From: Craspedostauros australis
Taxonomy: Eukaryota
Direction of reading: 5' to 3'
DNA: 50,912 nt
Assembly (NCBI GenBank): GCA_030167865.1
Contig: JALAGF010006032.1
Location: 1 to 50,912, forward strand
Position 1 is the first letter of the stretch. Each line of letters begins with the position of its first letter. Below are positions 9,372-37,300 of the stretch, one piece after another. Position numbers and translations under genes: made by a program. Below the pieces are notes generated by a model. That model saw nothing but the letters and a program-made list of their open reading frames with translations, ran no database searches and had not been told where the DNA came from.

Positions 9372-11501
9372 TCACCTGGTGAGATCAGCGGCTGACCCTT
9401 CCCTCACAGCCCTCACGAGCAATTCGAAATGGCGTTGCTGAGCTTCGGCGATGCGATCAGCCAAGAGGTTCGCCACCACGACAGAGCGGGGTGACGAGTG
9501 CAGTATCCTCGTGGGTTGCTGTTGCAGATGTTCAGATGGCTTCCGAATGGATGGAGATGACGCCGGTGCTGGCACGATGACTTCTTCCATATTGGCCTTC
9601 TGTTCACAGCCGTCGCAAGATGCAGGCGTTGTATTCGTTGGGGCAAGATCCCCTGCTGGAGCCGCTGCACGGGCATCGCTCTGTCTGTCATGTGGTGGAT
9701 CTTTGATTTGCGTCGATCCTCGTTGACGTTGCTCGTCGTTCATGGTACCCTGACGATCTTTATATCCTCCGGTGCGATCTGGCGCTTCATCGGGAGGTTG
9801 AGATGACGCGCTGTCCTTTGCTGATGCTGGATTCGGCCTCTTGGGTGCTGGTGGCATCGGAGACAGCTTGCGGATTGGTTGGCGCGGAGGGAAGTAGCTG
9901 GAGGCAGATGCGCGCTGTGCCTTCCCCGGCTGCGTCCGTGGCTGAGATCGTGGTGGCGTATGCGATCGGGTTGCTGCTGGTGGTGGCGATACCAGCGATG
10001 TTGATTGTAATGATGGCATTTTGTCACAAGTCTCCGCATCCGTCATTCTGTGCATATGGCGGGAGCTGACGGCATTTTCAGCGCTGCTTTGGTGAAATTG
10101 ATGCAGCGCACCACAATCTCCTACCTCGCTATTGGTGGCAATTGAGACGGCCGATTCGGACGCACATCCAAAGGTATCCACACTTTCATCGTACGAAGGC
10201 GATGCGTTGATGATCGAGTTGCTCTCGCTCGCCTTTGCGAGGAGGGAGAATTCCGATATTTTTAGTGTGCGATTGTCGTTGTTGCCGTCGTTGTTGATGA
10301 TGATGCTGCTGCGTGTGTTACCGTCGTCGCATCTTTGCGAACGAGAGATTGGATGCGAGATTAATTGCAGCCTGGATTGGGTTCCGCAAGCTGGTTTTCC
10401 GTTTGCTCGTGCAGGAGATGGCGTGATGGCGGATGATCGCGGTGGCGGCCGTGGTGGCGAGAGTCCCGACCGCTGGTGATGCTTTGGCGCATCGGCGTGG
10501 GTCGACAAGGAAATCTGGGCTGTTGGTTCAGGATCGCACGAGATGGTGTCGATGGAGACATCGGCGCCATGGCAGCTCTCCTGCCGAATGGGGAGCACAG
10601 GGAGACCGGAGGAAGAATCGCCTGCTTTTGCAGAATGTGGAGCTTGTCGATGCGAGGCGCGATGCGCCGCCGTCAATCCAGTATGCGAAGCATTGGACCA
10701 CTTGTCGAATCGGATCGGTCTGGAGAAGACAATGGGCTTTCGAGACGAGTCGTTGAGGCCGGTCTGGACCTGCAAATCGGGGGAAGGCGTCGCGCTGAAA
10801 TGAAGAGGAGCAGACGAGTGCGCAGTTTCGGATTGACGGACGCGGAAATCGGTTGACGTGAGCCCACGGTTGTCCTGCGAATGATTATGGTGTGCATCAT
10901 GTCCATCGTTGGCGTCCGGGACTTCGAGGTTGTAGGAGCCGCAATCATCAAGCTCGCTCCCCAGCGTGAGCTCCGAAATCAGGCGACGATGCGACGGTGG
11001 GATTGGGCATGACATGCTGTGGCGATCGTTTGCGGAGGTTTGAGCTGCTCTGCGTTGGGTTGGAGCATCAGCATCCATCAATGAGATGCTGTTGTCGTCG
11101 TCATTGTCATCATCGTCGTCATCATCGTAGAACTCCTGAGTTGCGGCATGCTCGCCATCTGCGTGCTGACCATCTGCCACAGTGTCAGTCCTGGCCGCAG
11201 GGTCAGCAAGGATATTCGGCAGCCGACAGGCGAAGGAGGTGGATCGCTGGAAGTATGATTTGGGCTGAGTTGGCGGCGACAGCTTATCGACGATGTGGCC
11301 TGTCCTCCGCGCCAATCCATTGCGATGGGCGTCGCTCTGTTGCCGAGGTTGTGCGCTGTCCTTGCTTGGCGCCCATGGTGTCATTGTTGTCATTGTTGTC
11401 ACTGGTGTCACTGGTGTCACTGGTGTCATGCTCGTACTTGTGGGTCGTTGCTGGTCGCGCTTGTTCGCCGCACGGAGGTGGAGGGATGAGCTCACGGTCA
11501 T
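9372..11501 (-). CDS. Hypothetical Ser/Pro/Ala-rich, intrinsically disordered protein (~709 aa)
   Basis: Uninterrupted 2.1-kb ORF with first ATG at 11501. It has a poly-Asp tract, TPV/TTM repeats and several PxxPxRxxS-like motifs, and is flanked by AT-richer intergenic DNA. No recognisable domain. Confidence 0.65.
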   Translation of the reverse strand: MTVSSSLHLRAANKRDQQRPTSTSMTPVTPVTPVTTMTTMTPWAPSKDSAQPRQQSDAHRNGLARRTGHIVDKLSPPTQPKSYFQRSTSFACRLPNILADPAARTDTVADGQHADGEHAATQEFYDDDDDDDNDDDNSISLMDADAPTQRRAAQTSANDRHSMSCPIPPSHRRLISELTLGSELDDCGSYNLEVPDANDGHDAHHNHSQDNRGLTSTDFRVRQSETAHSSAPLHFSATPSPDLQVQTGLNDSSRKPIVFSRPIRFDKWSNASHTGLTAAHRASHRQAPHSAKAGDSSSGLPVLPIRQESCHGADVSIDTISCDPEPTAQISLSTHADAPKHHQRSGLSPPRPPPRSSAITPSPARANGKPACGTQSRLQLISHPISRSQRCDDGNTRSSIIINNDGNNDNRTLKISEFSLLAKASESNSIINASPSYDESVDTFGCASESAVSIATNSEVGDCGALHQFHQSSAENAVSSRHMHRMTDAETCDKMPSLQSTSLVSPPPAATRSHTPPRSQPRTQPGKAQRASASSYFPPRQPIRKLSPMPPAPKRPNPASAKDSASSQPPDEAPDRTGGYKDRQGTMNDEQRQRGSTQIKDPPHDRQSDARAAAPAGDLAPTNTTPASCDGCEQKANMEEVIVPAPASSPSIRKPSEHLQQQPTRILHSSPRSVVVANLLADRIAEAQQRHFELLVRAVREGSAADLTR

Positions 11502-12592
11502 GTTCGCCCTCTTGATTGGAACGACTGTTGCTTGCACAATTGTCTCTGCGGTTGCCTTTGCTCTCGACGGTTGTGATCGGTGTGGTGAATGATGCTGTTT
11601 GTAGTAATATAGAATATCATAGAATACAATAGTAAGTATTACATGCTATTCAATACAATAAGATGGACTGGCGGCAATTCCAATTGCCCTTGTGCTTGCT
11701 GAGAGAAGCGGAATAGAGTACGGTGGGAGTTCACTGTGTCAGTGCCGGAGTCAATGGAGAAAGACGAAGCGTGTTGATAGAGTGTTTCGATGATGAACAG
11801 GAGCACCTTGGATCAGCACCAACCCTGCTGAAGTCTTGGCAGCCAAGAACATGCAGCGGTGGGTGCGGACCCACAATTCTCTTGTCTCCGCCTTCCTACG
11901 CGCAAACCACCCACAAACATCTCACTTCCGACAAAGCCCGACCATGGTGGGCACACCACACCTCCAACAACACAACATCAATAACGCGCCAACAACCCCA
12001 TCCAACATACAACCAACGCGCGCAACGACAAATTCGTCTTCTTCTCAACAATGCCCGCGACATCGGAGTCGATTACGCAATTAACGTTGGCAACGGTTGT
12101 TCATCGTTCACATGACCATGTGTGTCTCATGTCTCAGTTTTGAATTCCCAAAATTCGAACAACCTCAACAAAATATAGTAGCGCTTTTGAGCCAACTTTG
12201 CTTCCTCAATTTCGACATGGTGGGAGCAATTTATATTGTAATTATACCGCAGATCCCGACATGGAATACTGAGTATTGATTCATTTGACTTTATTGACAC
12301 AGTGGACCAGACTGTACGTCGTCGGTAATGTCGGGGATGTGCGAACGGAGAAATTCAAATTCAAATTCGACAACAACGCGCAAGGACCCAAGCAAACTGA
12401 TTCGGAACTCGATCTTGATTGTGTTTGTGCGCGAGAGAGACACGATACGAGCAGCTCGCGCTGCGTGGAGCGCGGACCTGCCGGATTACATCATTGTGTC
12501 CCTGACACAGAACCTCGCCAGCATCCGTGTGAGTGCGAACTATTAAAATACGATGTGCCACAACTGAAACGATTCCAGCAGGGACATCAACC

Positions 12593-15500
12593 ATGGGACG
12601 GTATCAACTCAACTTTGACGACGATCACGACGATGATCGCGATCATGACGGTGATGTTGGTCATGACGAATATGACAATGGCCACACCGGCAGCAGCAAC
12701 AACAACGCGTTGGTGGCCCATGGACAGGACAAATCGGGCGAGGAGGGGGAGTTGATTGATGGGATTCCAACCGAGGAAGAGCATCACAACGGACGTCCTG
12801 CATCTCACAGCGGGAGCTTCTGGCGGCCGTTGCATCGAGCTGTCATGTGCCATGATGGTAATGGTGATGGCTATGGTGATGGCTATGATGATGGAAGTGC
12901 CATGAGCGTCGATGGTGGCGACAGCTACACCAATTACGACCGCAAGAATCGTGCCGAGCGAAACAACGGCAACCGACGCGAGCATCAGTATCCGAATGAC
13001 GATCGTCGTCATGATCAGTGGAATGAAGATGATCCGCACAGGTACGGAGACGGCAAGTACGAGGACGAGAAGGATTATCATCAGAAATCGGGTCAATCTC
13101 GTTTCTTTGGCGGTCAGAGCCGCAGTCGCGGGTGGCCTTGGCAGGACCATACGAATGACTACGACGATGATTCCGACAGCCAGGATTATGATTATGACCA
13201 TGGCCGAGGCTCCTCGTATTATAGTGAAAGCGATCAAAGTGAGTATTCCGATTACACGAATGATGGCCGTAGGTATCATGGCAACAGATACGATGGGATC
13301 AACGACAAAGGGGATCGGGGCGACACGCGGTATGACCGATATAGTCGACACAGACATCCACGATCTTCCCGAGAGGCAGGTCAGGATCAACGTCACCCTC
13401 AACGTGGACGAAATGTGCCACGACACCGGCGGGATTACCAGGATGCGTACGACGATGTCCAGCAACGAAGATCCCGTCGTGGAGGCGACAATCGGAGCAA
13501 ACGAAATCACATCTCGCGATTCTTCTCAAGACGATCTGCCGACCGCGACGATGAGGTCGACGATGGTTCAATCGATTCAAACTCCAGACGAGATCACTTG
13601 TACTCGGACGACGATTCTCGTCTGCACACCAGTACCAACAGATATCGGGATGAAGGAGGGGTGGTCGCAAGGCATGATCACGATTCGGAAGATTCGCTCA
13701 TGCAACACGATGATCGCGACAACGGTCATGCTATTGCCCAGAATCACTATCACGTCTACTATATCACGCCTCCAGCTCCTTCCAACAATACCCGCACCAG
13801 TAGCAGCAGCATAGCTATTGGTGTTGGTGATACCAACGGCAAGGGCGACGGTAATGACAACACCAGTGTCGACGACAGCACTGCAGAAAATGCCGACGCT
13901 ACGGGGAACCCCGAAGGCCATAGATGGACCATGCCTCCGTATCTCAACTTGCCGAAGTGGTGCTCCCCCTGGGTGGTGCTGGTGACTTTTCTGGCCATCG
14001 TCACGAATGTGCTCCTTGCGTACGGCCCACCAGCACCGCCCATCCCCACGATGGCTGGAGGCGACCACAGGTTGCCAGCTGCTGATGCAACAGGTGAGGA
14101 GCTGAAAAATTTGTCTTGGTCGAGTTTCATGCTGCAGCAAGGAAGCCTGCTGATCCACCTCGTGTATCTTTGGTGTTTCCAGCTGCCCGGTCACGTCGCG
14201 AGCTGGTGCTGGACAGGGATCCAAGACGATCTCCTTCACAAGGTGATGCTTGGACGCGCCAGCGACTTTGATGTTGCACCACAGACGGGTTGTCAGTGGG
14301 CGCCTTCGATTGCGGGTCAATCGCATCTCATCACATCCAAAAAACCAACAGCGCACAGCGGCGCTCAAATGAGGAGTGAGCAGCCGGAGATCGTACCCCA
14401 TACTCTCGTAGAGCAGCTGCAGCATACATTGGAGAAGGACTTCATGGGCCATTCCATTGCGATGTCCAAACTCTCCGAAGCCTTGTTGCACTGGAGATTT
14501 TCGAACTCACGCGTCGATGATGGCAACAGAACGACACTTGGTAAACAACACAGAGCTGGACCTTTCTTCATGTACTTGGCCAGTGGGGCCGTTGGAGCCG
14601 GAAGGACGCATCTGGTATCGATACTGGCAGAGGTACTGTTCAAGCCGACATCCTGCACCAGCGATCAAGCTGTGCTCGATTTGAGGGAATGGCTCATATC
14701 CCACGATGGTTCTAGCGAGACAAGCGTCGAACACGATTTGGTGAAGAGGCTGGTTGATTTTCAGAGAATGGAATCCAGTGCATTCATAGCCATCCTCCCT
14801 GAGCCTGTCATGGCTGCTGGTGGTGGCAGTGGCAGCGTTGACACCGGCACTCGTATGATGCCCGACGAGAAGTCATCACCGTACAGTTTGCATGACCTTT
14901 GGAATGAGGTGCAAGACTATCTGGATGTGCTCAAGGATGTAATCGTTATCATTACAACATCTCCTGGCGCATTGCCATCGTCGTCGCCTCCATCCCAACC
15001 ATCCACAACCACGAAGATAATCGAAAAGACCATCCAAAAGTTTGGAGCCGAGCAGGCACAGCGGGAGCTCCCGTCCTTTCTGGCTTATGAGCTGGATCGC
15101 AAGCATGGGTCGATCGACCTCGACAAATCTGTGGGAATTTCAAAGGTGCGTACGGTGCAGTTGTCATGTATTATGTACGAATACTCGTATTTCTGCTCTA
15201 CATTCATTCCCAATCCCACGTCAATGTCCATGTCCATGTGTGCATCCATAGAGCTGCGACCAAGTCGAAGAACAAGTCCTGGAAGCTGCCGCTGATTGAC
15301 TCATACATCCCATTCCTTGGTCTTTCTTGTTTGGTGGACTGTGCGCTCGGTTGTGGGCTCTTTTATCCATCCATCCATCCACTTTCAATGCACCTTCAAT
15401 GCACATTCGACATTGGGCGCGCAGGCATTCCATGTGATCACACCTCTTCTGCCTCTCACACCAGGTACGATGAGGAGGATCCTGCAAAAACGCCTCGAAG

Positions 15501-16057
15501 CGTCGATGATGCGACAAGCAGACCCTGCATTGTACATAACGCAGATCCATACGAACAGGCGCTTGCTGGATTCTTTGCTGCGGCGCAACATCGAATTCCA
15601 AACATGGATACATAAAGCCACCAACCAAGAGCTCTTTTCGTACGCAACGCACGGTGCTCATTCGATCGATCCTTTGGTCCAACAAATGGCACGGTCCATG
15701 GGTTCTTGTTGGAAGGCCATCGGCCCAGATACCTCTGTACCAACACCGTCACGTTGGCAGCTGATTCCTTGGGGTCTGCTCTTTTCTCCAGCCCGGTCAC
15801 CACAAGGAACAGAGGCAAAGACTCACAGGATGCTGACGTTGGGGCTGGAACACAACAGCGAGTACGTGATGATCGTCCGGATGTGCAATGCAGGCAGTAT
15901 CATTCCAGATGTTGACACCGTCGAAGGAAATGGCGACGTTGGTGGTGGCCCGGAATCTGCCGTTCGCGGAGACGGTGGTGGTGATGATGATGGCGATGGA
16001 AGTGGCAGGTCTGGCATTGATCAGCACTGCGATCTTCTGTGTCGTGTGCAGTTGTGA
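12593..16057 (+). CDS. Membrane-anchored torsin/ClpB-like AAA+ domain protein with degenerate Walker motifs and a long D/R/H-rich N-terminus; exons 12593-15145 and 15425-16057 (~1061 aa)
   Basis: About 460 aa of disordered D/R/Y/H-rich N-terminus, then a TM helix (WVVLVTFLAIVTNVLLAYG). Torsin-like elements follow in order: LEKDFMGHSIA, PFFMYLASGAVGAGRTHLVSILAEVLF, VIVIITTSPG, FHVITPLLPLTPGTMRRIL, FSYATHGAHSI. The phase-0 intron 15146 (GTGCGT) to 15424 (GCAG) joins the ORFs in frame. The gene is well supported; the family call is by eye. Confidence 0.7.
15146..15424 (+). other. Spliceosomal intron (279 bp) of the torsin-like gene
   Basis: AAG|GTGCGT ... GCGCAG|GCATTC. The intron contains the ORF stop and a (CCAT)n tract; splicing gives ...GISK|AFHVITPLLP. 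Confidence 0.7.
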
Positions 16058-17443
16058 GGGGTGTGTTGGCACGTGATGGAAACGCATCGGCACTTGGCGG
16101 GGCATGAGAGAGACGAAAAGAGTGAAAGAAGCATGTTCTCCAGTTGGCGTGGGGGAACAGGTTGGCGGTTTTGGGGAGCCAACGCATCTTTGTCGGGACG
16201 GCTCGCAGGATGCAAACGCTCTTCTTTCGGGCATGAAAAGAACCCCTTCCCCATCATGTTCGCAAATTCTCTACTATACTTAACTGCACTCGTAACACAC
16301 CCCACACCGAGTGAATGACCATCCACCAACGAAGACGCCTCCGGTCAGCAGGCCTCGCCTGAATCTGGACCCGGTAGTTTTTGCCCAAACAATCTTCGCT
16401 GAATGGAATGTGATGAGCCTTGGTCACCAATACATCGTCGCTGAACCTCCGGTGAGCAGCATGCGACCCCATTCGGTGACACATCCACAGGAACAACAGC
16501 ACCACTGCACCGTACAGAACAGCATAATATGCAGACTTTCAAGTCGGTCGGCGCACCACTCCGGAAGGCGCGACGACTATGGTGCTGTGAACGCGCGCCA
16601 CAAGTACAAAGATGCCTGTGTGATTGTGCTCGACGGGACGAAATCAGGACTGACATGGGTGAGTGTCACAGAACCAATGTCCATTCCACAAATTCCGTTT
16701 CTCGCGACCAGGTTCTGGCTTCACAATTCTTATCCTTTTTGTCAATGCCCGCTGCAGTGTTCGCTTGTGGAAGACAATCGTGTCTGTTTCCTTTCGTTCT
16801 CTCGTCATGGCACCAACGTTGAACCTGTGATCTGGTTCCAAGGTCGTGCTCCTCCGCAGTTCGCGCACCCAAGACCAACCGAATCGCTTGTTTCGTCACC
16901 AGTGGCAACAGCAACAGCAGCTTGGAGGCAACGGAAGTGGGCAATTCACGGTGTGAAGTTCGCCCTGGCGCGTGTATCTCTGTGGACGGCCGCGCCGTTC
17001 GTGGATCGTGGGCACATGATACAATTATCATTGGAGTTGAGCCATTCCCGACGTTGTTTGTGGAATGCGTTTGTGTCAGAAGCTGTGTGGTCATGATGGC
17101 CTCTGTTTGCATGATGCGTGTGCGAGTATGGGAGCATACATAGGTCGTACATAGCTCGCAGGCAACTGCTTCGTGTTTGTACATCTTCTTGTGCCCACGA
17201 GCAACGAGTGCTTGTATCTGCGTAGCCGTGGTTGGGACGATGGATAGAGAAGTTCACACAAATTGTACCATCCTCGTTCCAGTGCTTCCGGCCTCATCTT
17301 CGATCAAAGGCACAGCACAGATACTCGCACACGCAGCAACAAAGAAAGCAACAGCTCCAGGAATCAACCCACCAACCAACCCACCAACCAAGCGAACGAA
17401 GGAAGGAACAAAGATAAGAGGGATCGACCAGCTGCATCGCATC

Positions 17444-20400
17444 ATGAACAGCAACCAGGAGAACCATCATTGTGATGCAATGGCGATCAATAACACCAAC
17501 ACCAACACCACTAGTGTTGTGAGCAACAGCAGCAGCAGCAGCAGCACCGAAGGCATCAATCAGAACGGGAATGAAGCGGACACCAGGTCGTTGTCCAGCT
17601 TCGCGGAGGACACAGGCTCGAACGGCGGATCCACGTACGGCGGCCGCGATTCTGCTTCGACCATCAATCTGGTGAAGCCAAAGCAGCAAGGCACTCGTGG
17701 GGGAGATGCTGGCAACCATCGACGGCGGTTGGCGCACAGAGAAAGCAGCCAGATCCGATACTCGAAGGCCTTGATGCTGGCCGTGCTGGGGTTAGCAGCA
17801 GGTCTGATGGGATACTTCACATTCACCATCTTCTCAAACAAGGAGGACGATGAATTTAACTTTGAGGTATGTCGCTCCTTCATGGTGTGGCCAAGCCCCC
17901 ACTTCGTGCCATACAGAATTGTTCTCGTGCGAACGATTATATGATATTATTATGATGGTGCCAATGCTCTGCTGGCTCTCCTTGATCTCACTATCTTTAC
18001 GACATCGTGTTACTCCGCCCTATCTTGTTGCCTGTCTTTGCCTTGCTTTGCCAATCTTGTTGATGTTACATCAATGGTTGCGACCACCCGCTTCCCCGCC
18101 ATGCTCTACAATCCTTGCCGTTCCTTGCGACGGATGCACATTGGCGTATCAGTTCAACGCCTACGGCAACGAAGTCCTCGACAGTTCCGTCATCACCGCA
18201 CAAAACATCTTCGCAACGATTGAATCAATGAGCGTGGTCATCACGTCCTTCGCACAGGCCACCAACGCAACATGGCCGTTCGTGACAATCCCAGACTACG
18301 CTCACAGGGGCAGCAATCTGCTCGAGCTGTCCGGCTCCACCTACCTTGGACTGCTACCTCTCGTCACCGCAGAAAACCGACCGAAGTGGGAAACCTATTC
18401 TCAAGAGAACGCAGGGTGGCTAGATGATCCGCTGCCCGAAAGCTTGTTGAACGCAGGCAGTGGCAGCTTTGGTGTCAGGTCCCGTGCCCGTGGACTGTTC
18501 TCATTCGGTAACGACATGCCTGCGGGCTCGCCACCAAGCGCGGATGCCAACGTCACATCCAATGGTGCTTCCGGTGGCAGCGGTGACTATGGTGGTGGTG
18601 ACTATGGTGGCGGTGGTGGTGATGGTGGTGGCTATGGTGGCGGTGGTGATGGGGAGGATGGAGACAAGTTTTCGGGTGGGGAATGGCCCGGATCTGGTCC
18701 CGGAGCCTCGTCCAAGATCGTCCCGTACATCTACACGTTTGGCGATGATGGCAGCTTCATTCCCATCCCGGACACGAGCATTCCTGATCCGTACTACTGC
18801 GTGTTCTGGCAAGTCACTCCGCCAGCTTCCAACATCGTCAACTTCAATGCGCTGGCATTCGGAGGCATCTTTGAAAACGTCTACGACACTATGCTTGAGG
18901 CAGGCACGGCCGTTCTATCCCCCATGTCGATCAAGGAGGCAAATCTGACAGATCCCGGCACCTGGCCATTCAGCTACCTCCTGCAACCAATCCACGAAAC
19001 TCTCGAGGCGGGTTCGCCCATCGTGGCCCTGTTTGGCGCCGCAATTCCATGGCAGAACTACTTCGAGCGCGTCCTCCCCGACAACGTCCAGAGCCTCCTG
19101 GCTGTCGTCAAAAACACATGCGACCAGACCGTCACCTACCGTATCGATGGGCCTGACGTCTTCTACATGGGCAACGAAGATCTCCACGACAAAAAGTTCA
19201 GGCATATGGCACTCAGCAGAAGCTTCGATGCGTTGAACCCGCTGGAAGGAGATTCCGTGTGCACGTACTCTGTGCACCTCTACCCAACTCAAGACTTCGA
19301 AGACGGCTACAAGTCGCGGTATCCCCTGCTCTACACAATCGCCGTGGTGCTCATCTTTGTCGTTACATCAGCCATCTTCACGCTGTACGATTGCCTCGTG
19401 GAGAAGCGCCAAACTCTCGTGATGCACTCCGCCGTCAGGACCGGCGCCATTGTCAGTTCGCTGTTCCCAGCCCAGTTCCGCGACCGGGTCATCGAAGATG
19501 ACGCAGCGAAACAAAAGACACTGAATGGTGGCAGCAACGCCTGGAACAGCGCGCAGCCGCAGGGAGTCGACAGCAGGATGCAGCAAGCCAATCGTGGCGA
19601 GAATGAGAAGACGAGGCTACTGATGTCGCGCCCGATCGCCGATTTGTTTCCATCCGTGACGGTGATGTTTGCTGACATCGCTGGCTTCACGGCTTGGTCC
19701 AGCGTGCGAGAGCCGTCGCAGGTGTTCACGTTGCTGGAACAAATCTACAGCTCCTTCGATGTCGTCGCCAACCGCCGCCGTGTCTTCAAGGTCGAGACCA
19801 TCGGTGATTGCTACGTGGCAGCATGCGGGTTGCCTGAAGCTCGCGATGATCATGCCGTGGTCATGATCCGATTCGCCCGCGAATGCCTCCACGAGATGGT
19901 GGAGGCCGTGCAGTCGCTGGAGGTTCTGCTTGGACCGGACACCGCGGAACTCGCCATGCGGGTTGGCATTCATTCTGGCTCTGTCACTGCCGGGGTCCTG
20001 CGTGGGGAGAAGACAAGATTCCAGCTCTTCGGCGACACCGTGAACACGGCAGCGCGGATGGAGAGCACGGGCATCCGGAATCGAATCCACATATCTGCGG
20101 AAACGGCCGCGTTGCTTCGGTCTTGCGGGAAGGGCCATTGGGTGTCGGCCCGGGAGGAGACGGTGCACGTCAAGGGCAAGGGTGACACTCAGACTTACTG
20201 GGCGTCAGCACGGAGGTCTGCTGCGGCATCCACAGCGTCTGCTGCATCCTCAGGACCTGCAGGCCTCGGCAAGTCCGGCCGAGGCAACCATGAGGAGTCG
20301 TCGTCGCCCGCACGAATCAACCCCAACGACGAACTGCAGCAGACTGTCCATTCCGTGAGGCGAAGCAAGATCATGAAGCAGCTGGGTCACGAGCGCAAGA

Positions 20401-21644
20401 TCCAGCGGTTGATCGAGTGGAACGCGGAGGTGCTGCAGGGGCTGCTCCAAAAGATCATCGCCATGCGCAACAACCCGAACGCACCCTGCACCGACCTGCT
20501 CATCCACTCGGGTCAGGACCGAACGGTCCTTGACGAAGTGGAGGAGATCATCCATCTCCCAGGCAAGGCAGCCAAGTACCATCATGACCCTGCCACTATC
20601 GAGCTCCATCCTGACGTCACCCGGCAGCTCCAGGATTACGTTTCTAGCATCGCGCAGATGTACCGCCCCAACTCTTTCCACGGCTTTGAGCATGCTTCCC
20701 ACGTCGTGCAGTCCGTGACGAAGCTCCTGTCCCGCGTGGTCACCCCGGATTCCATCGATTACCAGGAGATGGCGTACAAGCAGCAGCTAGGCGCAGCCAA
20801 GATGCACGAGTTCACGTACGGCATCGCGTCCGATCCGCTGACGCAGTTTGCCTGCGCCTTTTCCGCGCTGATCCACGACGTCGATCATACCGGCGTGCCC
20901 AACTCCATCTTGATCAAGGAGCAGACCGACGTTGCCGCGCACTACAACAACAAGAGCGTCGCCGAGCAGAACTCGGTGGATCTGGCGTGGGAGCTGCTGA
21001 ACCAGCCCGAATTCAAGTCACTGCGAGCCTGCATCTACCAAACCAAGGAGGAGTTGCGTCGATTCCGGCAGCTGGTTGTAAATTCGGTCATGGCAACCGA
21101 TATCGCCGACAAGGGTCTGGGGACGCTAAGAAAGGCACGGTGGGAGAAGGCGTTTGCCGACGACTCGCGATCCAGCAGCCTCGATGACGCGGCCTCTACT
21201 TCGACGGTCAGCCAACTCGACAACGCGGGCAACACGCACGGCGATGGCGAGACAAGCAAGAGAAGGCCAAGGTCGAAGAGGGAGTCCTCCAGGACCGCCA
21301 CGAACCGCAAGGCGACCATCGTCATCGAGCATCTCATCCAGGCATCGGACGTGTCCCACACGATGCAGCACTGGCACGTGTATCTGAAATGGAACGAACG
21401 GTTGTTCCACGAGATGTACGCGTCCTACCTGGCAGGCCGTTCCGAGGACGACCCATCATTGGCATGGTACGAGGGGGAGCTTGGATTCTTTGATTTCTAC
21501 CTCATCCCGTTGGGAAAGAAGCTGGCAACTTGCGGGGTGTTCGGCGTCACGTCGGATGAGTACCTGAACTACGCCCTGGCCAACCGCGCCGAGTGGGAAG
21601 CCAAGGGCAAGCAGATCGTTCAAGGGTATCTGTCGAAATACTAA
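17444..21644 (+). CDS. Receptor-type guanylate/adenylate cyclase - class I cyclic-nucleotide phosphodiesterase fusion (GC/PDE); exons 17444-17866 and 18153-21644 (~1304 aa)
   Basis: TM1 (ALMLAVLGLAAGLMGYFTFTIF), an extracellular CHASE-like region (WPFVTIPDY...LLPLVT...WETYS) and TM2 (LLYTIAVVLIFVVTSAIFTLY). Class III cyclase motifs: VTVMFADIAGFTAWS, FKVETIGDCYVAACG, RVGIHSGSVTAGV, RFQLFGDTVNTAARMES. PDE motifs: FHGFEHASHV, HDVDHTGVPN, ATDI, QASDVSH, ELGFFDFY. The phase-0 intron 17867 (GTATGT) to 18152 (TCAG) joins ...FNFE|FNAYG. Confidence 0.93.
17867..18152 (+). other. Spliceosomal intron (286 bp) of the GC/PDE gene
   Basis: Donor GAG|GTATGT, pyrimidine-rich body, acceptor TATCAG|TTC; links the TM1 exon to the main exon in frame. 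Confidence 0.8.
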
Positions 21645-31329: not shown

Positions 31330-34300
31330 ATGGACAGAGCCAAGCTATTCTCGTACCAGCCGTCGCCGACGAAGCCATCGGCACGTTCGCAGACGAATCG
31401 AAGAGACTCGCGCGGCGGACACAGCACGGGACGATCCAACGGCAGCAGCAGCTTCGCCCACACCGACTACGATCATCCAGTGGACATCACCATGGCATCG
31501 TCCTCCAACTCCAGCGGATGGAACCCCAGGGACGAGATCCCGTCCGGAACGGTCCGCAACAACCCCTTCCTCCCAAAGCAGCCGCCGCCGCCAGAACCAG
31601 AACCGCTGCAGGACCAGCTCAAGTTCAAGAATCAGTGGGACGCCTCCAGGGATATCCCCCGTGGCATGGTGCAAGCGGCGCGCATGGGCATGAGGACCGG
31701 GGGTGGCAGCCGGTATCGTGACGGTTCCTCCGCAGCCACCTCCAGCGAACAGCAAGGGCGCTATGCCTCCGATGCCAGCAGCAGCGCAGCCAGTTCCAAC
31801 CGAAACACCTTCCGCGATGATGGCTTCCACGATGTGTCGGAGATGGAGAGCAACGGCAGATCGTACGGGCAGCCCAAGTACCAGCCAAAGCAACAGCCCA
31901 AGCATCAGAACAGGCAGCAGCAACACCAGCAGCAACAGTATCAACAGCAGTATCAACAGCAACGCCAGCTCTCATCGAACCGAAGGCAGCGAGGATCTCA
32001 GCCAAGTCCAGTGGTTAACTATCTGGAACCCAAGAACTATAGCACGGGACGAGGTGCACCATTGCAGGCATCCTCCAAGCAGCAGCCTTCTGCCATGAAT
32101 GCCAATGGCAGCTCTTGGACAGGACGCTCCAATTCAGGCAACAGGCCCAACAATCGGCAACCGGGACCATCTCCAGTGCCTGTCGACACGACGGGATTTC
32201 CGACTGACGCGTTCAGCACGGACAACACCGACAGCACTGCCTCGTGGACGATGCGAGGACGTCTCATGGAAGATGACCAAATGGCAATGGCTGCACAAGG
32301 CAACAACAACAACAACAGCAGCAACAGATCGACCAACGCTTCAGAATCGACAGACTCTTCGTGGCAGGTCTCCACCGAGATACCGGAGGGAACCGTGCGA
32401 CACAACAAGTTCCTCAACAACAACAACAAGTCGCAACCACCAGGACCACGCACCGCTGCACCCTCCAAAGCCAGCAGAAGATGGCAGCAGCCATCCGTGT
32501 CCACATCCGCGGCGAACGCTCATTACGCCACTGCAGCAGGATCGCAAGACAACAGCAACAACAGTCACCGCCAGGGCTTCCGCAGCCCAAGGAAGGCAGG
32601 GCAGACTTCGACACCGGGGCTGGGGCCACCGATCAACGCAGGCAATGGATCGCATGATTCGGACGACTTCGGTCAATGGAACAATCCACCGGCCGGCGAG
32701 GAAGACGACAACACCTGGATGGTCCAAGGAACCTTCACGGTGGACGACGCGGACGACCCAGACCTCATGCCAGCCGCCACCGACGACAGTGACCTTTTCC
32801 AAGGCATCGATGCCTACGGCAGCCCTGTCACAGAAGAGAAGAAGCTCGAATCCGACATACCACCTCCAACGATGCCCCCATCGGCCGCGACCAAGAACAC
32901 TCTGGGCGACGCCCGCAACGCTCAGCACAGCATCGCACAATCGTCTCAAGGTGCCACCGGTTACTTCCCCGATGACACCGATGACTACACCACGGCCGCA
33001 GCGAGCCTTGCCGCCTTCCGGGACAGGGATGTCCTGGAACAGGCCAAGAGGAAGAAGATGTCTCGCGGCGGTGCGCTTGGTGTGCCTTCCGCTCCGCATG
33101 TTTCCACCAGCAATCCGCAACAACAACAGCCGTGGCAATCGCAGCAAACATCTTCTAGCCTTGCCACCAATGATGGATTCAACGATTCCTTCGGGAATGC
33201 TCCGCAACCATTCGAGGTTGCCCGAAAATCAGAACTGTCGATGCAAACGACGTCCTCACATTCCACCGACAAGCACGAGAGGCGGAAATCTGTGGATCGC
33301 ATCAGTGATGATCGCTCCAGCTTGCGGTACGAAGACGATCGCGTCGCTGCAGCAGCCACAAAGCAGAAACAGCAACAGGTCGCCCCCGTCTCTCTGCGCA
33401 CAGCCAAAACCAAAACAACTCCTGCACCAGCACCGGCAGCGGTCGTGACGCAGCCAACGCCGAACACTAAAAGCAAGAAGAAGGGCATGAGCGGCATCCT
33501 CAAATTCTTCGGGGGCGGCAAGAAAGACAAGAAGCGCAATAGCGGTGGAGGCGGCGCCTTCCGTCGCAAGCAGCAGTCGTCTTCGTCGATGGCTTCGAAG
33601 GAATCTAAGCGCGTCCCTAATGCACCTGGAACAGCTCCGAAGCCATCATCATCGGTCGTCGCCAATGCCAACAACTCCAGTAGCAACAACAGCACGAGTA
33701 GCAGCACCAAGGGCAGCAGAGTCAGCGCGCTCAAGAAGGCTTGGTCTCCGGCCAAGGCATCCGTACACTCAAAACAACAGCCGCAAGCAACTCCTGCTCA
33801 GCCTGCTGCAGTGAGTGAGAATGCCCCATCGCACGCAAGACCCCGCGACATGCGCATCAGCAGCAGCAGCAACAACAACAACAGTGGCGACAGCCAGATC
33901 ATGGACGAAGACACCACGATGGTGAGCGAGATCACCATGCCTCGACAGGCAGCACCAGTGGTCGTGGATATCAGCCAGGTCGACGAACTGCAACCTCAAG
34001 CACAACCGCGAGTCAGTCCGAAGGCCCACCTCAGCATCACAACCGATCAGAATGGCAATCGGAAGTACGATGTCGTGGATTTTGACAAGGTGGAACAAAA
34101 TTCCGACAGGAAGGATGGTGGTGATCGCGGTGATGGCACTACCAGCGATGATGCTTTCAACATCAATTCGCCAGTCTTTTCGGATGGAGATCCATTCACG
34201 TCGACATCAGCAATAGCACCGGCGGCAGCGGCTCTCTCGAAGGCATTGAACAGCAATATCCAGAACTCATCCTTTCCTAGCTCCGAAGAACGACGAAGCC

Positions 34301-37300
34301 CAGTGGCGCGTCAGGTTGTTGTCGATACCAGCATGGCTCACTCGCGGCTAGCGGTAGCTGATGACACTGCCACCAAGACCTCGCCATCTCGCTCAATGTT
34401 GCAGCAGCAAAGACGACAAGGGGAGGAAGCCCCACAAACCGAAGTACCAGCAACAAGAGCGACGGTAGCGGCAGGAGCATCTCCTGGAAGAGCCGTGATG
34501 GCGGAAGACCCAAGCGACCCGGCTTTGGATCATCTGGCCATGATGAGCAGCAGCGATTCGGATGCTGACGACAGTGAAGGCGACGACTTGGCCAAACAGC
34601 AACCCATCGCGCCAGACTTGCAAGACGATGAGGTCTTCCGCGACATGCAAATCACGATGCCACCACCTCCTCCACCTGGCCCACCACCGCCCAAACGCAT
34701 GCCCACACAAGATTCACAGCCGCAGCAACCTCAACCGCAGGCGAACGAGATGGTCACTCATCCAGACGAGCCATCAGCAGCAACCGTCGATCACAGCGAA
34801 CAATCAGAAGAGGATTCTCTGTCCGCAGCAGCGCCCACACGTCGGGCATCAGGACGAGACGCTTCATCCGTGTCATCGGGAAGCACGTCCCGCTCGTTGA
34901 GTCTGCGCCGGCGGCCAGCAGGCAGAAGACATCCTTTGCATACGGTCCCTGACACATCATCCCCTGCAGCCGATGGTGGTGGTGTTGCTGGCGTTGGTGC
35001 ACTAACACTCACACCACCGCGTGCAACCGCAGAAGCAGCAATAGGGTCGGGGAAGAACAGCTCCGCGAAATCACAGGAACATCTGTCACCAAACGCAAAT
35101 GTGTCCCCACGACACAAGATCCGAATGAGACAGAGGTCGAAACCAAGCGCAGACAACCTCATCAATCCACCAAAAATCGAACGCATGACGAAAGCAACAC
35201 TACCACCGTCACAAGCACCCGCTTCTGCTGCGGCAACAACTGTGCAATCAGCTCGATCACAGGACGATACATCCATCAAGCAGTCGCTGTCTGGTGAAAA
35301 GAATAAACTGGCGCGACTCCGTCGTGATTCTCGAATCCGCAGCCATCTGTCCAGCAAGAGGGGGTCAGGAGGAGTCGACGACAACGACACCACAGCCAGC
35401 AGCACTTCAAACAGCAATAGTTCTTCCGGGATCGACGCAGAAAGTCGGAGTCTTCGCGCCACGAGCACGCGCAAAAACAGCAAATTGAATGCCAACCGCG
35501 GCTCAGGCGTGACGGTGCCACAGAGCGACGGTTCGGATCCGAGCGCTCATCATGATAGTGATAGCAACTCAACCGGCACGCAAAACACCTACCGCGCCAA
35601 CAAGCAGCGAGGATTCAACAGCAAGGCCATCTTATCCCAGCAAAACCAGAGGCTTCGGCAGAAGCAGCACCAGCACCAGCAACCAACCCGGACCTCGAAC
35701 ATGGTCGAGGCCAGCAAGAAGGGACACAGTCGCAGCTCCAGCAGCCTTCGCACACTGAGCTCCAATGGAAGCCGTGGCAGCGGCTCTCACAAGAACAGCC
35801 GCGACAATACAGACGCATCCGTGCGATCTATCGCATCCAGCAACTCGAACCACTCTAGTTCCGATATTCGCGTCCTGCGATCGATCCTGCGACGCCCTCG
35901 CGGGGCGCATCCGCAACCGAAGCCGATCGTGCGCCGCAAGCAACCTGGGTACACGACCTACGACGAATCCAATATCACTGATCCGATGCAACGTGCGGGA
36001 CTACGCCTGCTGTCAGCGGCAATCATGCCCATCCAGACGGAAGTTCGTCGCTTCCTGGCGATGCGTCATGCACTGACACGGATGTGGGCGCTGATCGTCA
36101 TCCAGACGTACACGAGGCGTTGGATCGCACGGCGACATTACGACAAGTGCCAGCGGGCGATCATCAAGATGCAAGCCGTCGTGCGCGGTGATATGGCGAG
36201 GATGGACATCATGTATAAGCATGCGTGCGCGATGGAGATCCAACGTGTGGTGCGTGGGTACCTCGCCACCATGCGTGTCTACGAAGACATCGTCAAGGTG
36301 ACCATGGTTCAGAGCATCATTCGAAGAAGGCAGGCAATCGACAAGGCGACGTACCGACTCGCCTTCGTCATTCAGCTGCAGTCCATAGCCAGGAGCTGGT
36401 TGGCTCGCCAGCAAATGGCAAGAGAGCAAAGGTCGGCCATTATGATCCAGGCCAAGTGGCGCTGCTTCTTCGAACGTCTCAGCTACCAGTTCGATCTGCT
36501 CGACGTCATCATTGTGCAGAGCGCGTGGAGGCAACGCGCGGCGACGAAGGCTGTGGCACAACGCAGGTTGGAGCATCACAACTGCTGTGCCACCAAGATC
36601 CAGTCTCAGTGGAAGTCGTACGACTGCACCATGAACTACCTCCACTTCCTGGCGGACGTCCTGATCGCACAGAGCGCGGTACGACGATTCCTGGCCTTGA
36701 AGCGGGTGGAGCGCATGAAGAGATCAGCTGCCATCACCATCCAGACCATCTGGAGAGGCTACTCGTGTGTGTTGCACAAGAAACGTTACCTGGCGGCGCG
36801 CACGATCCAAAGCGCGGCCCGTGGTTTCAACTGTTTCAATCGGTACTACGACTACATGGCGGCGCGATGGATCCAGTCCTGCTGGAGACGTCACGTGCTC
36901 GAAACCAAGTACACCAGGTACATGGCGGTGAGGACGATCCAGACGTCGTGGAGACGCCATGTGTGCGAGACCAAGTACACCAGGTACATGGCGGTGAGGA
37001 CGATCCAGACGTCGTGGAGACGTCACGTGCTCGAGACAGACTACAACGAGTACGTCGCCGCACGCATGGTCCAAACCGCGTGGAGACGTCATGTCCTGCA
37101 AACGGACTTCACCGAGTTCACCGCGGCACGCAAGATCCAAAAGCACTGGCGCCGTGTGGCATGCGAGTTACTTTACACCCAGCATCTGGCGGCCAAGACC
37201 ATCCAGACCAGCTACCGTCGTCGTGTGTGCGAGGTTGATTACCAGGAGTACATGGCAGCCCGCAAGATCCAAGCTCAATGGCGACGTTGCGTGGACGAAA

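What the first reader, a model, noticed from the sequence alone, without database searches (positions are those of the whole stretch)
12593..16057. Torsin-like pseudo-ATPase with LAP1/LULL1-type architecture in an alga
Seen: a long charged, disordered N-terminus, a TM helix at ~13970-14027, and a C-terminal domain with torsin-like landmarks in the right order. These are xxGHxxA, a hydrophobic strand plus GAVGAGRT at 14585-14608, ...AEVLF, a strand VIVIITTS, and, after splicing, xxxPLLPL and FSYATHG. The Walker A Lys is replaced by Arg, and no acidic hhhhDE Walker B is evident (best candidate AFIAILPE). Established: torsins are ER/nuclear-envelope AAA+ ATPases studied mainly in animals. Their activators LAP1 and LULL1 are type II membrane proteins with a disordered N-terminus and a luminal, catalytically dead AAA fold. 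Inference: this may be the cofactor half, or a Torsin-4-like member, of an undescribed torsin system in diatoms, whose nuclear envelope is continuous with the chloroplast ER.
Basis: partly seen in the sequence, partly recalled or inferred. Interest (0 to 1): 0.75.

Follow-up and report, generated by a model that had tools for sequence, protein, structure and literature searches.

The report
Membrane-anchored dead Clp/torsin-like AAA+ protein
This gene encodes a single-pass membrane protein whose C-terminal half is a catalytically degenerate AAA+ module of the Clp/Hsp100 type (the group torsins belong to); it belongs to a small unannotated family, resembles torsins in architecture, but is not shown to be a torsin or a LAP1/LULL1 cofactor.

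Summary

The C-terminal half is an AAA+ domain, but the evidence points to Clp/Hsp100 NBD2 first and torsin second. A profile of the window protein plus four relatives hits ClpE/ClpB/ClpC NBD2 at E 1.9e-12 to 1e-10, and TorsinA at 0.002. hhalign against ClpB NBD2 gives 99% probability. The AF2 core has pLDDT 65-81 and VIA Z 11-12 to ClpC/ClpB.

Only six 90%-identity clusters of relatives were found, all environmental and unnamed. They keep the Walker A Lys, the sensor-1 Asn and an Arg aligned with the Clp "LNRID" Arg. All lack the Walker B Asp-Glu and the GYVG pore loop.

The window copy has also lost the Lys (Arg), the Asn (Ser) and the sensor-2 basic residue. No LAP1C similarity or arginine finger was found.

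Exon 2 is homologous to the relatives' C-terminus, so the join is needed. The only run laid showed no junction, and the "intron" in frame resembles coding sequence of relatives. Luminal topology and any catalytic partner remain untested.

The parts
12593..15145 (+). Exon 1 (851 codons), running from the conserved start MGRYQL to ...SVGISK
   Evidence: The start is supported by the M-x-R/K-Y-x-L N-termini of relatives.
12593..13957 (+). N-terminal region of 455 aa, rich in Asp/Arg/Gly/Ser/His/Tyr and low in complexity. It is much longer than in relatives (about 120-190 aa).
   Evidence: composition; alignment
13745..13774 (+). Family-conserved HYH(V/I)Y..PP motif, lying before the TM helix
   Evidence: invariant columns H385 Y386 H387 Y389 P393 P394
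13958..14029 (+). Single TM helix (WCSPWVVLVTFLAIVTNVLLAYGP), followed by the invariant YGPPAPP
   Evidence: Kyte-Doolittle maximum of 2.08 at residues 456-479; invariant Y477-P483
14117..14251 (+). Family-conserved juxtamembrane helical hairpin carrying LPxHVxSWCWxG
   Evidence: invariant W527 L531 P532 H534 V535 C539 W540 G542; helices H30-51 and H54-74 in the model, pLDDT about 50-70
14396..15103 (+). AAA+ large subdomain of the Clp/Hsp100-NBD2 type, with secondary structure in the canonical order: alpha0, alpha1, beta1, P-loop, alpha2, beta2, alpha3, beta3, loop, alpha4, beta4, alpha5
   Evidence: profile search E 1.9e-12; hhalign 99%; AF2 pLDDT 65-81; elements mapped; VIA Z 11-12
14585..14608 (+). 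Degenerate Walker A, GAVGAGRT. Lys is replaced by Arg (AGG). Relatives have G..GVGK[T/A/L].
14783..14803 (+). Strand beta3 (FIAILP) plus Glu, at the Walker B position. There is no hhhhDE. Relatives have T-H, E-H or E-R here.
   Evidence: AF2 strand E252-257; alignments, where MAFFT offers SGSVDTGT as an alternative
14801..14887 (+). Window-specific insertion loop (EPVMAAGGGSGSVDTGTRMMPDEKSSPYS), not present in relatives or in ClpB
   Evidence: pLDDT about 32
14939..14962 (+). Strand beta4 (VIVIITT) plus Ser at the sensor-1 position. Relatives and ClpB have TSN.
15146..15424 (+). Proposed GT-AG intron, 279 nt and in frame. It holds the only in-frame stop (TGA 15293-15295). In frame 0 it reads ...NPTSMSMSM...SCR[TGA]LTHTSHSLVF, which aligners place on coding sequence of relatives.
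15425..16057 (+). Exon 2 (210 codons plus TGA). It holds VITPLLPL (15434-15457), the sensor-2-like FSYATHGAH (15635-15661), and the C-terminal C...C-R-x-x-L (16028-16054).
   Evidence: BLASTP to P0007 residues 536-616, E 8e-6; C-termini align; stop codon seen
16058..16331 (+). Probable 3' UTR
   Evidence: The X1 contig runs from 15372 to 16331. X1 is only guessed to be RNA.

Best explanation
The locus is one gene, 12593-16057 on the + strand, spliced at least once to remove the TGA at 15293.

It encodes a single-pass membrane protein of about 1,060 aa. The parts, in order, are:
- a long charged, disordered N-terminus;
- one TM helix;
- a conserved helical hairpin;
- an AAA+ module homologous to the second nucleotide-binding domain of Clp/Hsp100 proteins. 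Torsins are most similar to this same group.

It belongs to a small, unannotated family. The whole family lacks the substrate-threading pore loop and the Walker B Asp-Glu, so the family is unlikely to be an unfoldase or an efficient ATPase. This is an inference.

Relatives keep the residues for ATP binding and sensing: the Walker A Lys, the sensor-1 Asn, a Clp-type Arg, and a sensor-2 Lys. The window's copy has replaced all of these. It is therefore most likely a non-catalytic (pseudo-ATPase) scaffold or regulatory subunit that uses the AAA+ fold for protein-protein contacts at a membrane.

The orientation is inferred only: N-terminus cytosolic or nucleoplasmic, AAA+ domain in the ER/nuclear-envelope lumen.

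The protein is torsin-like in architecture and in lacking a pore loop. It is not shown to be a torsin or a LAP1/LULL1 homologue.
For: Family.
- 4 relatives among 1.84 billion representatives, plus 2 more clusters. That is 6 clusters holding 17 member sequences.
- They share the N-terminus, the HYHxY motif, the TM helix, YGPPAPP, the WCW hairpin and the AAA+ domain.

Clp relationship.
- The A2 profile against PDB puts 47 Clp/Hsp100 rows, best E 1.9e-12, ahead of TorsinA (3 rows, E 0.0021-0.0025).
- hhalign against 4 ClpB NBD2 sequences gives probability 99.0%, E 8.3e-18, over 168 columns.

Fold.
- The model of relative P0007, built without Clp rows, has core pLDDT 55-75. Foldseek gives Skd3/ClpB/ClpC at E 4e-6 and TorsinA at E 3.8e-5 with TMt 0.41.
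- The model of the window protein has core pLDDT 65-81 and the canonical strand order. VIA Z is 11.9-10.2 to ClpC/ClpB/Hsp104 over about 180 residues at rmsd about 3.5 A.

Motif states. These were read from the alignments with ClpB NBD2.

Pore loop. ClpB's GAPPGYVGYEEGG has no counterpart in the family.

One gene.
- Exon 2 matches P0007 residues 536-616 at E 8e-6.
- The C-termini are conserved and the gene ends on TGA.

Other leads.
- ESM feature neighbours are AAA and Torsin clusters at 0.91-0.94.
- Torsins are reported to lack pore loops and to be most similar to Clp proteins (PMC7175109 and PMC6646356, passages read).
Against: - No junction-spanning read or contig was seen. The one run laid (X1, only guessed to be RNA) has a contig collinear with the genome from 15372, which is 53 nt inside the proposed intron.
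- The window pieces alone give no Pfam hit and no PDB hit. The assignment rests on transitive homology through a shallow family.
- The window model's alignment contained 4 ClpB rows, which biases it toward that fold.
- Everything after residue about 840 (exon 2) is modelled at pLDDT below 50. The small domain and the sensor-2 assignment are therefore motif-level only.
- Topology rests on a weak charge bias: +1 against 0 over 15 flanking residues.
- The function is inferred; nothing was assayed.
Confidence: 0.6

Rival explanations
1. One reading: this is the cofactor half of a torsin system. It would be a LAP1/LULL1-like dead AAA+ protein that activates a separate, catalytically competent luminal torsin by supplying an arginine finger.
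For: - The layout (disordered N-terminus, TM helix, degenerate AAA+ domain) matches the type-II layout described for LAP1/LULL1 (PMC5425593 and PMC4358337, passages).
- Pfam Torsin is a recurrent sub-threshold hit in 7 of 7 relatives scanned, E 1.8e-5 to 0.074.
- Relatives in other organisms keep the Walker A Lys and a Clp-type Arg. Live-like and dead versions of this fold therefore both exist.
Against: - No LAP1C (PF05609) hit at E up to 10.
- The Arg-bearing segment is missing from the window protein under the one-intron model, and reads His in the read-through.
- All relatives seen also lack the Walker B Asp-Glu, so no catalytic partner has been identified.
- The Pfam Torsin model covers alpha0, the GQ motif and Walker A. 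ClpB NBD2 shares all of these, so those hits do not separate torsin from Clp.
- The genome could not be searched.
Confidence: 0.12
2. The window copy is a pseudogene or a null allele of the family gene. The TGA at 15293 would be a nonsense change inside formerly coding sequence, and the loss of every catalytic residue would reflect decay.
For: - Read in frame, the 'intron' gives ...PTSM... and ...R[TGA]LTH..HSLVF. tblastn and MAFFT place these on P0007 ...PTSM...RSLTRLDHHLIL and on the equivalent stretches of P0014 and P0023. The local score is 27, reached by 12 of 500 shuffles.
- TGA is one base from the Ser codon TCA.
- The X1 contig is unspliced at the acceptor.
- The codon-usage score of the exons (0.09 and 0.03) is below the window's typical coding value of 0.20 +/- 0.14.
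Against: - There is only one stop in 1,154 codons between 12593 and 16054.
- A canonical GT-AG pair removes exactly that stop, in frame.
- Non-catalytic family motifs and the exact C-terminus are retained.
- Both exons are present in run X1.
Confidence: 0.15
3. The topology is reversed or the compartment is different. The AAA+ domain would face the cytosol, or an organelle surface, as in other membrane-anchored AAA+ proteins, and there would be no luminal, torsin-like setting at all.
For: - The charge bias around the TM helix is weak.
- There is no localisation data, and no signal peptide.
- By sequence the domain is nearer to Clp/Hsp100 proteins, which are not luminal, than to TorsinA.
Against: - A 455-aa highly charged N-terminus without a signal peptide is unlikely to be translocated (inference).
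- Relatives have two Arg immediately N-terminal of the helix (..GRWICR|IV..) and no charge in YGPPAPP after it.
- Invariant Cys residues lie on the C-terminal side: C539 and C567, plus the C-terminal C...C. This fits an oxidising compartment, though that is an inference.
Confidence: 0.12

Closest known systems
Clp/Hsp100 second nucleotide-binding domain (ClpB, ClpC, ClpE, ClpL, Hsp104, Skd3/CLPB)
   Same: - Homologous AAA+ large subdomain: PDB profile search E 1.9e-12 and hhalign 99%.
- Fold match at Z 11-12.
- Shared elements: the alpha0 helix, the V-x-G-Q-x-x-A motif, the P-loop position, the TSN sensor-1 strand, and (in relatives) an L-T-R-L-D segment aligned with ClpB L-N-R-I-D.
   Different: - It is a single module anchored by an N-terminal TM helix.
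- There is no GYVG pore loop, and the beta2-to-helix connection is shorter.
- The whole family lacks the Walker B Asp-Glu.
- The window copy also lacks the Walker A Lys, the sensor-1 Asn and the sensor-2 basic residue.
- Pfam AAA_2 is below its cut-off: only 1 of 7 relatives is listed, at 16.4 bits against a cut-off of 27.
Torsins (TorsinA and others; Pfam PF06309)
   Same: - A single Clp-like AAA+ module associated with a membrane.
- No pore-loop consensus (PMC7175109 and PMC6646356, passages).
- Sub-threshold PF06309 hits in 7 of 7 relatives.
- TorsinA appears among the fold matches of the relative's model, at E 3.8e-5 and TMt 0.41.
- ESM neighbours include Torsin clusters at 0.91-0.92.
   Different: - PF06309 never reaches 27 bits, and the window protein gives no hit.
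- TorsinA scores 20 bits against 46-50 bits for Clp.
- Torsins have Walker A GxxxxGKN (PMC7175109, passage) and a working Walker B glutamate (E171; PMC4358337, passages). This family has GK[T/A/L] (GR in the window) and no Asp-Glu.
- Torsins lack an arginine finger, whereas relatives here keep a Clp-type Arg.
- Torsins are described as present in all metazoans (PMC7175109, passage).
LAP1 / LULL1 luminal activator domains (Pfam PF05609)
   Same: The type-II-like layout: a disordered N-terminus, one TM helix, and a catalytically dead AAA+-like C-terminal domain (PMC4358337 and PMC5425593, passages).
   Different: - No sequence similarity was detected.
- The window protein still has a recognisable P-loop.
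- It has a C-terminal region after the large subdomain (exon 2), whereas the cofactors lack the small domain (PMC5425593, passage).
- The strictly conserved activating Arg of LAP1/LULL1 has no counterpart in the window protein.

Membership tests
Torsin (PF06309) | Pfam Torsin model at or above its gathering score (27 bits) | tested here: not met
   The window pieces give no hit at E up to 10. The 7 relatives score 13.6-25.3 bits, E 0.074 to 1.8e-5.
Torsin (PF06309) | Non-canonical Walker A GxxxxGKN and an intact Walker B glutamate | tested here: not met
   The window has GAVGAGRT and FIAILPE. Relatives have GK[T/A/L] and T-H, E-H or E-R. The torsin motif is taken from PMC7175109 (passage).
Torsin (PF06309) | No aromatic pore loop | tested here: met
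   ClpB's GAPPGYVGYEEGG has no counterpart in any family member.
Torsin (PF06309) | Residence in the ER / nuclear-envelope lumen | not testable with these tools
   There is only a weak positive-inside bias, plus conserved Cys residues on the C-terminal side.
Torsin (PF06309) | Closer to torsins than to other Clp-like AAA+ modules | tested here: not met
   The family profile gives 47 Clp/Hsp100 rows (up to 50 bits) ahead of TorsinA (20 bits). A single relative gives ClpC at E 0.0011 and TorsinA at E 0.24. No torsin sequences could be fetched, so no tree was built.
LAP1/LULL1 (PF05609 LAP1C) | Sequence similarity to the LAP1C luminal domain | tested here: not met
   No PF05609 hit at E up to 10. 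No LAP1 or LULL1 chain appears among the PDB sequence matches.
LAP1/LULL1 (PF05609 LAP1C) | Conserved arginine finger at the end of helix alpha5 | tested here: not met
   The segment aligned with ClpB LNRID / P0007 LTRLD is absent under the one-intron model. It reads L-T-H-T-S in the frame-0 read-through.
LAP1/LULL1 (PF05609 LAP1C) | Type II membrane protein with a disordered N-terminus and a C-terminal AAA+-like domain | tested here: inconclusive
   The single TM helix, the charged N-terminus and the AAA+ fold are confirmed. Orientation was not tested.
Clp/Hsp100 NBD2-type AAA+ (HCLR clade) | Profile-level homology of the large subdomain | tested here: met
   E 1.9e-12 over profile positions 264-438. 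hhalign probability 99.0%, E 8.3e-18.
Clp/Hsp100 NBD2-type AAA+ (HCLR clade) | Predicted AAA+ alpha/beta fold | tested here: met
   Core pLDDT 65-81 with the order beta1, P-loop, alpha, beta2, alpha, beta3, alpha, beta4, alpha. Z 11.9 to ClpC and 11.3 to ClpB NBD2. Caveat: the alignment contained ClpB rows. The relative's model, built without them, gives Foldseek E 4e-6.
Clp/Hsp100 NBD2-type AAA+ (HCLR clade) | Catalytic set: Walker A Lys, Walker B Asp-Glu, sensor-1 Asn, GYVG pore loop, sensor-2 Arg | tested here: not met
   In the window these read Arg, Pro-Glu, Ser, absent, and His (HGAH). Relatives keep the Lys and the Asn and have GAK, but lack the Asp-Glu and the pore loop.

The most novel reading that the evidence does not exclude
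Outside animals, a lineage of (probably) diatoms has its own membrane-anchored luminal AAA+ system built from a Clp-NBD2-type module without a pore loop. It would be either a very deep relative of torsins or an independent, convergent invention. It would come in graded states: ATP-binding but hydrolysis-dead members that keep an Arg finger, and fully dead members like this one. These states could pair up as torsin and LAP1/LULL1 do, at the nuclear envelope / chloroplast-ER continuum.
Probability: 0.15. Interest if true: 0.8.

Novelty: new variant of a known kind. Interest (0 to 1): 0.55.

Why it matters
Torsins are described as the only AAA+ proteins of the ER and nuclear-envelope lumen, and as an animal feature (PMC7175109, passages). 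A protist family with a torsin-like layout would be relevant to that picture. The layout here is a TM anchor, a single Clp-like module, no pore loop and impaired catalysis.

Such a family could be a natural comparison for how a threading ATPase fold is repurposed at a membrane. If it is luminal, it would be a handle on nuclear-envelope or chloroplast-ER biology in algae.

It also defines an unannotated protein family. The family has a clear gradient from nucleotide-binding to fully dead members, which is useful for studying how pseudo-ATPases evolve.

Tried and rejected
**Searches with the window pieces alone**
- Single-sequence Pfam gave nothing relevant.
- Single-sequence PDB searches gave nothing relevant.
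- The word-index homology search with the window domain scored 8000 candidates and found none at E <= 0.001.

**Small domain**
- P0007 residues 533-640 and window exon 2 against PDB gave no significant match.
- ESM features of P0007 525-660 gave only sub-0.9 leads: a ClpB_D2-small cluster at 0.86 and TOR1A_C at 0.80.
- hhalign did not extend past sensor 1.
- The FSYATHG / sensor-2 reading therefore stays at motif level.

**Selenocysteine at the in-frame TGA**
- Rejected. No SECIS or any other Rfam match at E <= 1 in 12000-17500.
- The gene's own terminator is TGA, at the position where the relative's protein ends.

**Mini-exon model**
- In frame +2 of the intron, SWKLPLIDSYIPFLGLSCL looks like the L-I-D...P-F-L-x-L motif.
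- Two-intron models including it are possible, but all need the weak donor TTG|GTGGAC at 15334.
- Its similarity to the relative's linker is not above shuffles (454 of 500 reach the score).
- Kept only as a possibility.

**Codon-usage log-odds for the intron frames**
- Not decisive: -0.05, -0.32 and +0.05, against 0.09 and 0.03 for the exons.

**Expression**
- No RNA holder is listed. The one run (X1) is only guessed to be RNA.
- Its contigs cover 14920-15072 and 15372-16331, with no joint and nothing between.

**DNA loci of relatives**
- Two metagenome scans found none, so intron positions in relatives could not be read from DNA.

**Whole genome**
- Not held, so no search was possible for an intact partner or for paralogues.

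**Earlier findings of this scan**
- None, whether searched by place, words or sequence.

**Literature**
- The listed results of four full-text searches showed no paper on torsin-like proteins in diatoms or other protists: torsin + diatom; torsin / AAA+ / phylogenetic / stramenopiles; torsin + non-metazoan; torsin with protist genus names.
- In the one 'torsin + diatom' paper opened (PMC6646356), the word is 'Diatome', a diamond knife. The other 15 of the 16 papers holding both terms were not opened, and the listing had no torsin-containing row.

**TorsinA in the window model's fold searches**
- It is not among the rows shown (up to rank 50) by Foldseek or the 50 entries shown by VIA. That model's alignment contained ClpB rows, so this is not evidence against a torsin relationship.

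**Complex prediction**
- Not used. No binding claim is made.
Full report
**1. What is in the sequence**

Two ORFs, 12533-15295 and 15296-16057, lie in one frame on the + strand. A single TGA at 15293-15295 separates them.

The first ATG, at 12593, gives MGRYQL. The relatives found later begin M-[GV]-[RK]-Y-x-L, so the start is supported by homology.

GCGCAG|G. It is 279 nt, in frame, and removes the only stop. Between 15296 and 15434 there is only one AG, at 15423-15424. Any model that keeps VITPLLPL in frame must therefore use that acceptor.

The hydrophobic maximum is at residues 456-479, which is 13958-14029. GAVGAGRT is at 14585-14608, with Arg encoded by AGG.

**2. Relatives**

The window pieces alone match nothing in Pfam or among PDB sequences. 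The word-index search also found nothing.

An exhaustive phmmer search of 1.84 billion representatives with residues 480-851 found 4 proteins, at E 2.1e-9 to 5.2e-5. A profile search added two more clusters. In total there are 6 clusters at 90% identity, holding 17 member sequences. All come from ENA or JGI/IMG environmental data and none carries a name or an organism.

The relatives share the whole architecture:
- the N-terminal M-x-R-Y-x-L;
- an acidic region, much shorter than the window's 455 residues;
- H-Y-H-[IV]-Y..PP;
- one TM helix;
- an invariant YGPPAPP;
- a hairpin with L-P-x-H-V-x-x-W-C-W-x-G;
- the P-loop domain.

Only P0007 and P0022 (720 and 724 aa) run uninterrupted to a C-terminus. 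Window exon 2 aligns to P0007 residues 536-616 at E 8e-6. Both proteins end C-x-x-x-C-R-x-x-L, immediately before the stop. The window's stop is TGA.

Exon 2 is therefore part of this gene, and TGA is a genuine terminator here. The TGA at 15293 must be spliced out for a full-length product.

**3. What the domain is**

Sequence evidence:
- A profile of the window sequence plus four relatives was searched against PDB sequences. It lists 47 Clp/Hsp100 rows first: ClpE at 1.9e-12, ClpL at 7.8e-12, and ClpB and ClpC at 2e-11 to 1e-9. These cover profile positions about 264-455.
- TorsinA follows with three rows, at E 0.0021-0.0025 and 20 bits.
- hhalign of the family against four ClpB NBD2 segments gives probability 99.0%, E 8.3e-18, over 168 columns. 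The match runs from helix alpha0 to just after sensor 1.

Structure evidence:
- An AF2 model of relative P0007, made from 8 rows with no Clp sequences, is poor overall (pLDDT 42) but reaches 55-75 in the core.
- Foldseek on that model finds Skd3, ClpL, ClpB NBD2 and ClpC at E 4e-6 to 3e-5. TorsinA (5J1T, 5J1S) ranks 11-12, at E 3.8e-5 and TMt 0.41.
- An AF2 model of the window protein itself was read through the intron by reference, with X at the TGA. It has pLDDT 65-81 over the core.
- Its elements follow the canonical order: alpha0 (PHTLVEQLQHTLEKD), alpha1, beta1 (FFMYLA), P-loop, alpha2, beta2, alpha3, beta3 (FIAILP), a disordered 29-residue insertion, alpha4, beta4 (VIVIITT), and alpha5.
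- VIA-align gives Z 11.9-10.2 to ClpC, ClpB NBD2, Hsp104, Skd3 and ClpX, over about 170-190 residues at rmsd about 3.5 A.
- That alignment contained four ClpB rows, so the second model is not independent of the Clp assignment.

**4. Torsin or Clp?**

Pfam Torsin (PF06309) is listed for 7 of 7 relatives scanned, which represent 5 independent clusters. The values are E 1.8e-5 to 0.074 and 13.6-25.3 bits, always below the 27-bit cut-off and always over model positions about 13-82. Pfam AAA_2 appears for 1 of 7.

This looks torsin-specific but is not. The region covers alpha0, the V-x-G-Q-x-x-A motif and Walker A, and ClpB NBD2 has all of these. The AAA_2 model evidently starts later.

With whole sequences the family is clearly nearer to Clp NBD2. 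ESM feature neighbours are a mix of bacterial AAA clusters (0.93-0.94) and chordate Torsin clusters (0.91-0.92).

One feature the family does share with torsins is the missing pore loop. ClpB's GAPPGYVGYEEGG has no counterpart, and the beta2-to-helix connection is about a dozen residues shorter. Reviews state that torsins lack pore-loop motifs, have Walker A GxxxxGKN, lack an arginine finger, are most similar to Clp proteins, and are present in all metazoans (PMC7175109, PMC6646356 and PMC4358337; passages read).

I could not fetch torsin sequences, so no tree was made.

**5. Motif states**

These come from the alignments with ClpB NBD2.

| Motif | ClpB NBD2 | Relatives | Window |
|---|---|---|---|
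| G-Q motif | G-Q | G-Q | G-H |
| Walker A | G-K-T | G-K-[T/A/L] | G-R-T |
| Walker B | D-E | T-H, E-H or E-R, then E-[EQ]-L | P-E after strand FIAIL (AF2 assignment); MAFFT instead pairs SGSVDTGT |
| Sensor 1 | T-S-N | T-S-N | T-T-S |
| Arg motif | L-N-R-[ILV]-D | L-T-R-L-D (P0007, P0022); L-Y-R-I-G (P0014); L-T-L-L-D (P0023) | not present under the one-intron model |
| Sensor 2 (motif level only) | G-A-R | G-A-K (P0007) | H-G-A-H |

I recall the ClpB L-N-R-[ILV]-D Arg to be the NBD2 arginine finger. The spacing to G-A-R in P0011, fits that recollection.

The whole family is thus expected to be hydrolysis-deficient and non-threading. Most members look able to bind nucleotide. The window copy looks fully dead.

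**6. LAP1/LULL1?**

The layout is analogous. However, there is no PF05609 hit and no Arg at the activating position. There is also a C-terminal region (exon 2), which the cofactors lack (PMC5425593, passage). The cofactor idea is not excluded as a way the protein could work, but membership is not supported.

**7. The linker region is unresolved**

(a) The one-intron model is the simplest.

(b) Read in frame 0, the 'intron' gives ...NPTSMSMSM...SCR[TGA]LTHTSHSLVF.
- tblastn and MAFFT place this on P0007 ...TPTSMVRSL...SERSLTRLDHHLIL, and on the equivalent stretches of P0014 and P0023.
- The local score is 27, reached by 12 of 500 shuffles, for one of three frames tested.
- TGA is one base from the Ser codon TCA.
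- This suggests formerly coding sequence that is now either spliced out or carries a nonsense change.

(c) Frame +2 holds SWKLPLIDSYIPFLGLSCL. Two-intron models that include it exist, but they need a weak donor at 15334 and are not supported statistically.

Other tests on this region:
- Codon-usage scoring does not decide between the models.
- No SECIS was found.
- The only run holding the region (X1, guessed to be RNA, 99.8% identical) has contigs at 14920-15072 (depth 7.6) and 15372-16331 (depth 43.6). The second runs 53 nt into the intron, and no joint was seen.

**8. Topology and context**

The charge bias at the helix is weak: +1 on the N side against 0 on the C side. Relatives have two Arg just before the helix.

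Invariant Cys residues (C539, C567, and the C-terminal pair) and two sequons (NLS, NRT) lie on the C-terminal side. An N-in, C-luminal orientation is inferred, not shown.

The neighbouring genes are ordinary eukaryotic genes: an ankyrin-repeat protein, a PhyH dioxygenase, a guanylate cyclase-phosphodiesterase fusion, an acetyl-CoA synthetase, a 3,021-codon IQ-motif ORF, TPR proteins and a mitochondrial carrier. The organism is not identified.

**9. Verdict**

This is a real gene for a membrane-anchored, catalytically dead AAA+ protein. It belongs to a new, narrowly distributed family derived from the Clp/Hsp100-NBD2 and torsin branch.

It is torsin-like in architecture and in pore-loop loss. 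It is not demonstrably a torsin, and it is not a LAP1/LULL1 homologue.

The most likely role is a non-catalytic scaffold or regulatory subunit. Localisation, partners and the exact splice pattern are open.

Noticed in passing
window 15146-15424: The proposed intron is a multiple of three and lies in frame with both exons. Apart from one TGA it is open. In that frame it resembles coding sequence of relatives (PTSM...; R-[stop]-L-T-H..H-S-L-V-F against R-S-L-T-R-L-D-H-H-L-I-L). This could be a case of a coding stretch turned into an intron, or a recent nonsense change.
   Followed up: partly
window 15283-15333, frame +2 of the intron: The peptide K-L-P-L-I-D-S-Y-I-P-F-L-G-L is a second copy-like version of the L-x-D...P-F/L-L-P-L motif that opens exon 2 (VITPLLPL). 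It was not significant against shuffles.
   Followed up: partly
window 17850-21644 (+), perhaps with 17177-17944 as an upstream exon: A 1,264-codon ORF combines a guanylate/adenylate cyclase catalytic domain (E 4.8e-50) with a cyclic-nucleotide phosphodiesterase domain (E 1.6e-29) in one protein.
   Followed up: no
window 31330-40395 (+): An uninterrupted 3,021-codon ORF whose only Pfam match is many IQ calmodulin-binding motifs (E 8e-39).
   Followed up: no
window 9372-11537 (-) and 42395-43918 (-): Long ORFs of 721 and 507 codons with no Pfam match at E <= 0.001. The first is Ser/Pro/Ala-rich.
   Followed up: no
relatives P0003, P0004/P0014, P0007/P0022 (just before the TM helix): The conserved H-Y-H-I-Y-Y-T-P-P-P-E-Y-Y stretch contains a P-P-x-Y-type motif on the presumed cytosolic side. 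The window has Y-Y-I-T-P-P-A-P instead.
   Followed up: no
window 15372-16331 versus 14920-15072: In run X1 the 3' part of the gene has about six-fold higher contig depth (43.6) than the exon-1 fragment (7.6). This could be 3' bias, or a shorter transcript starting inside the intron.
   Followed up: no
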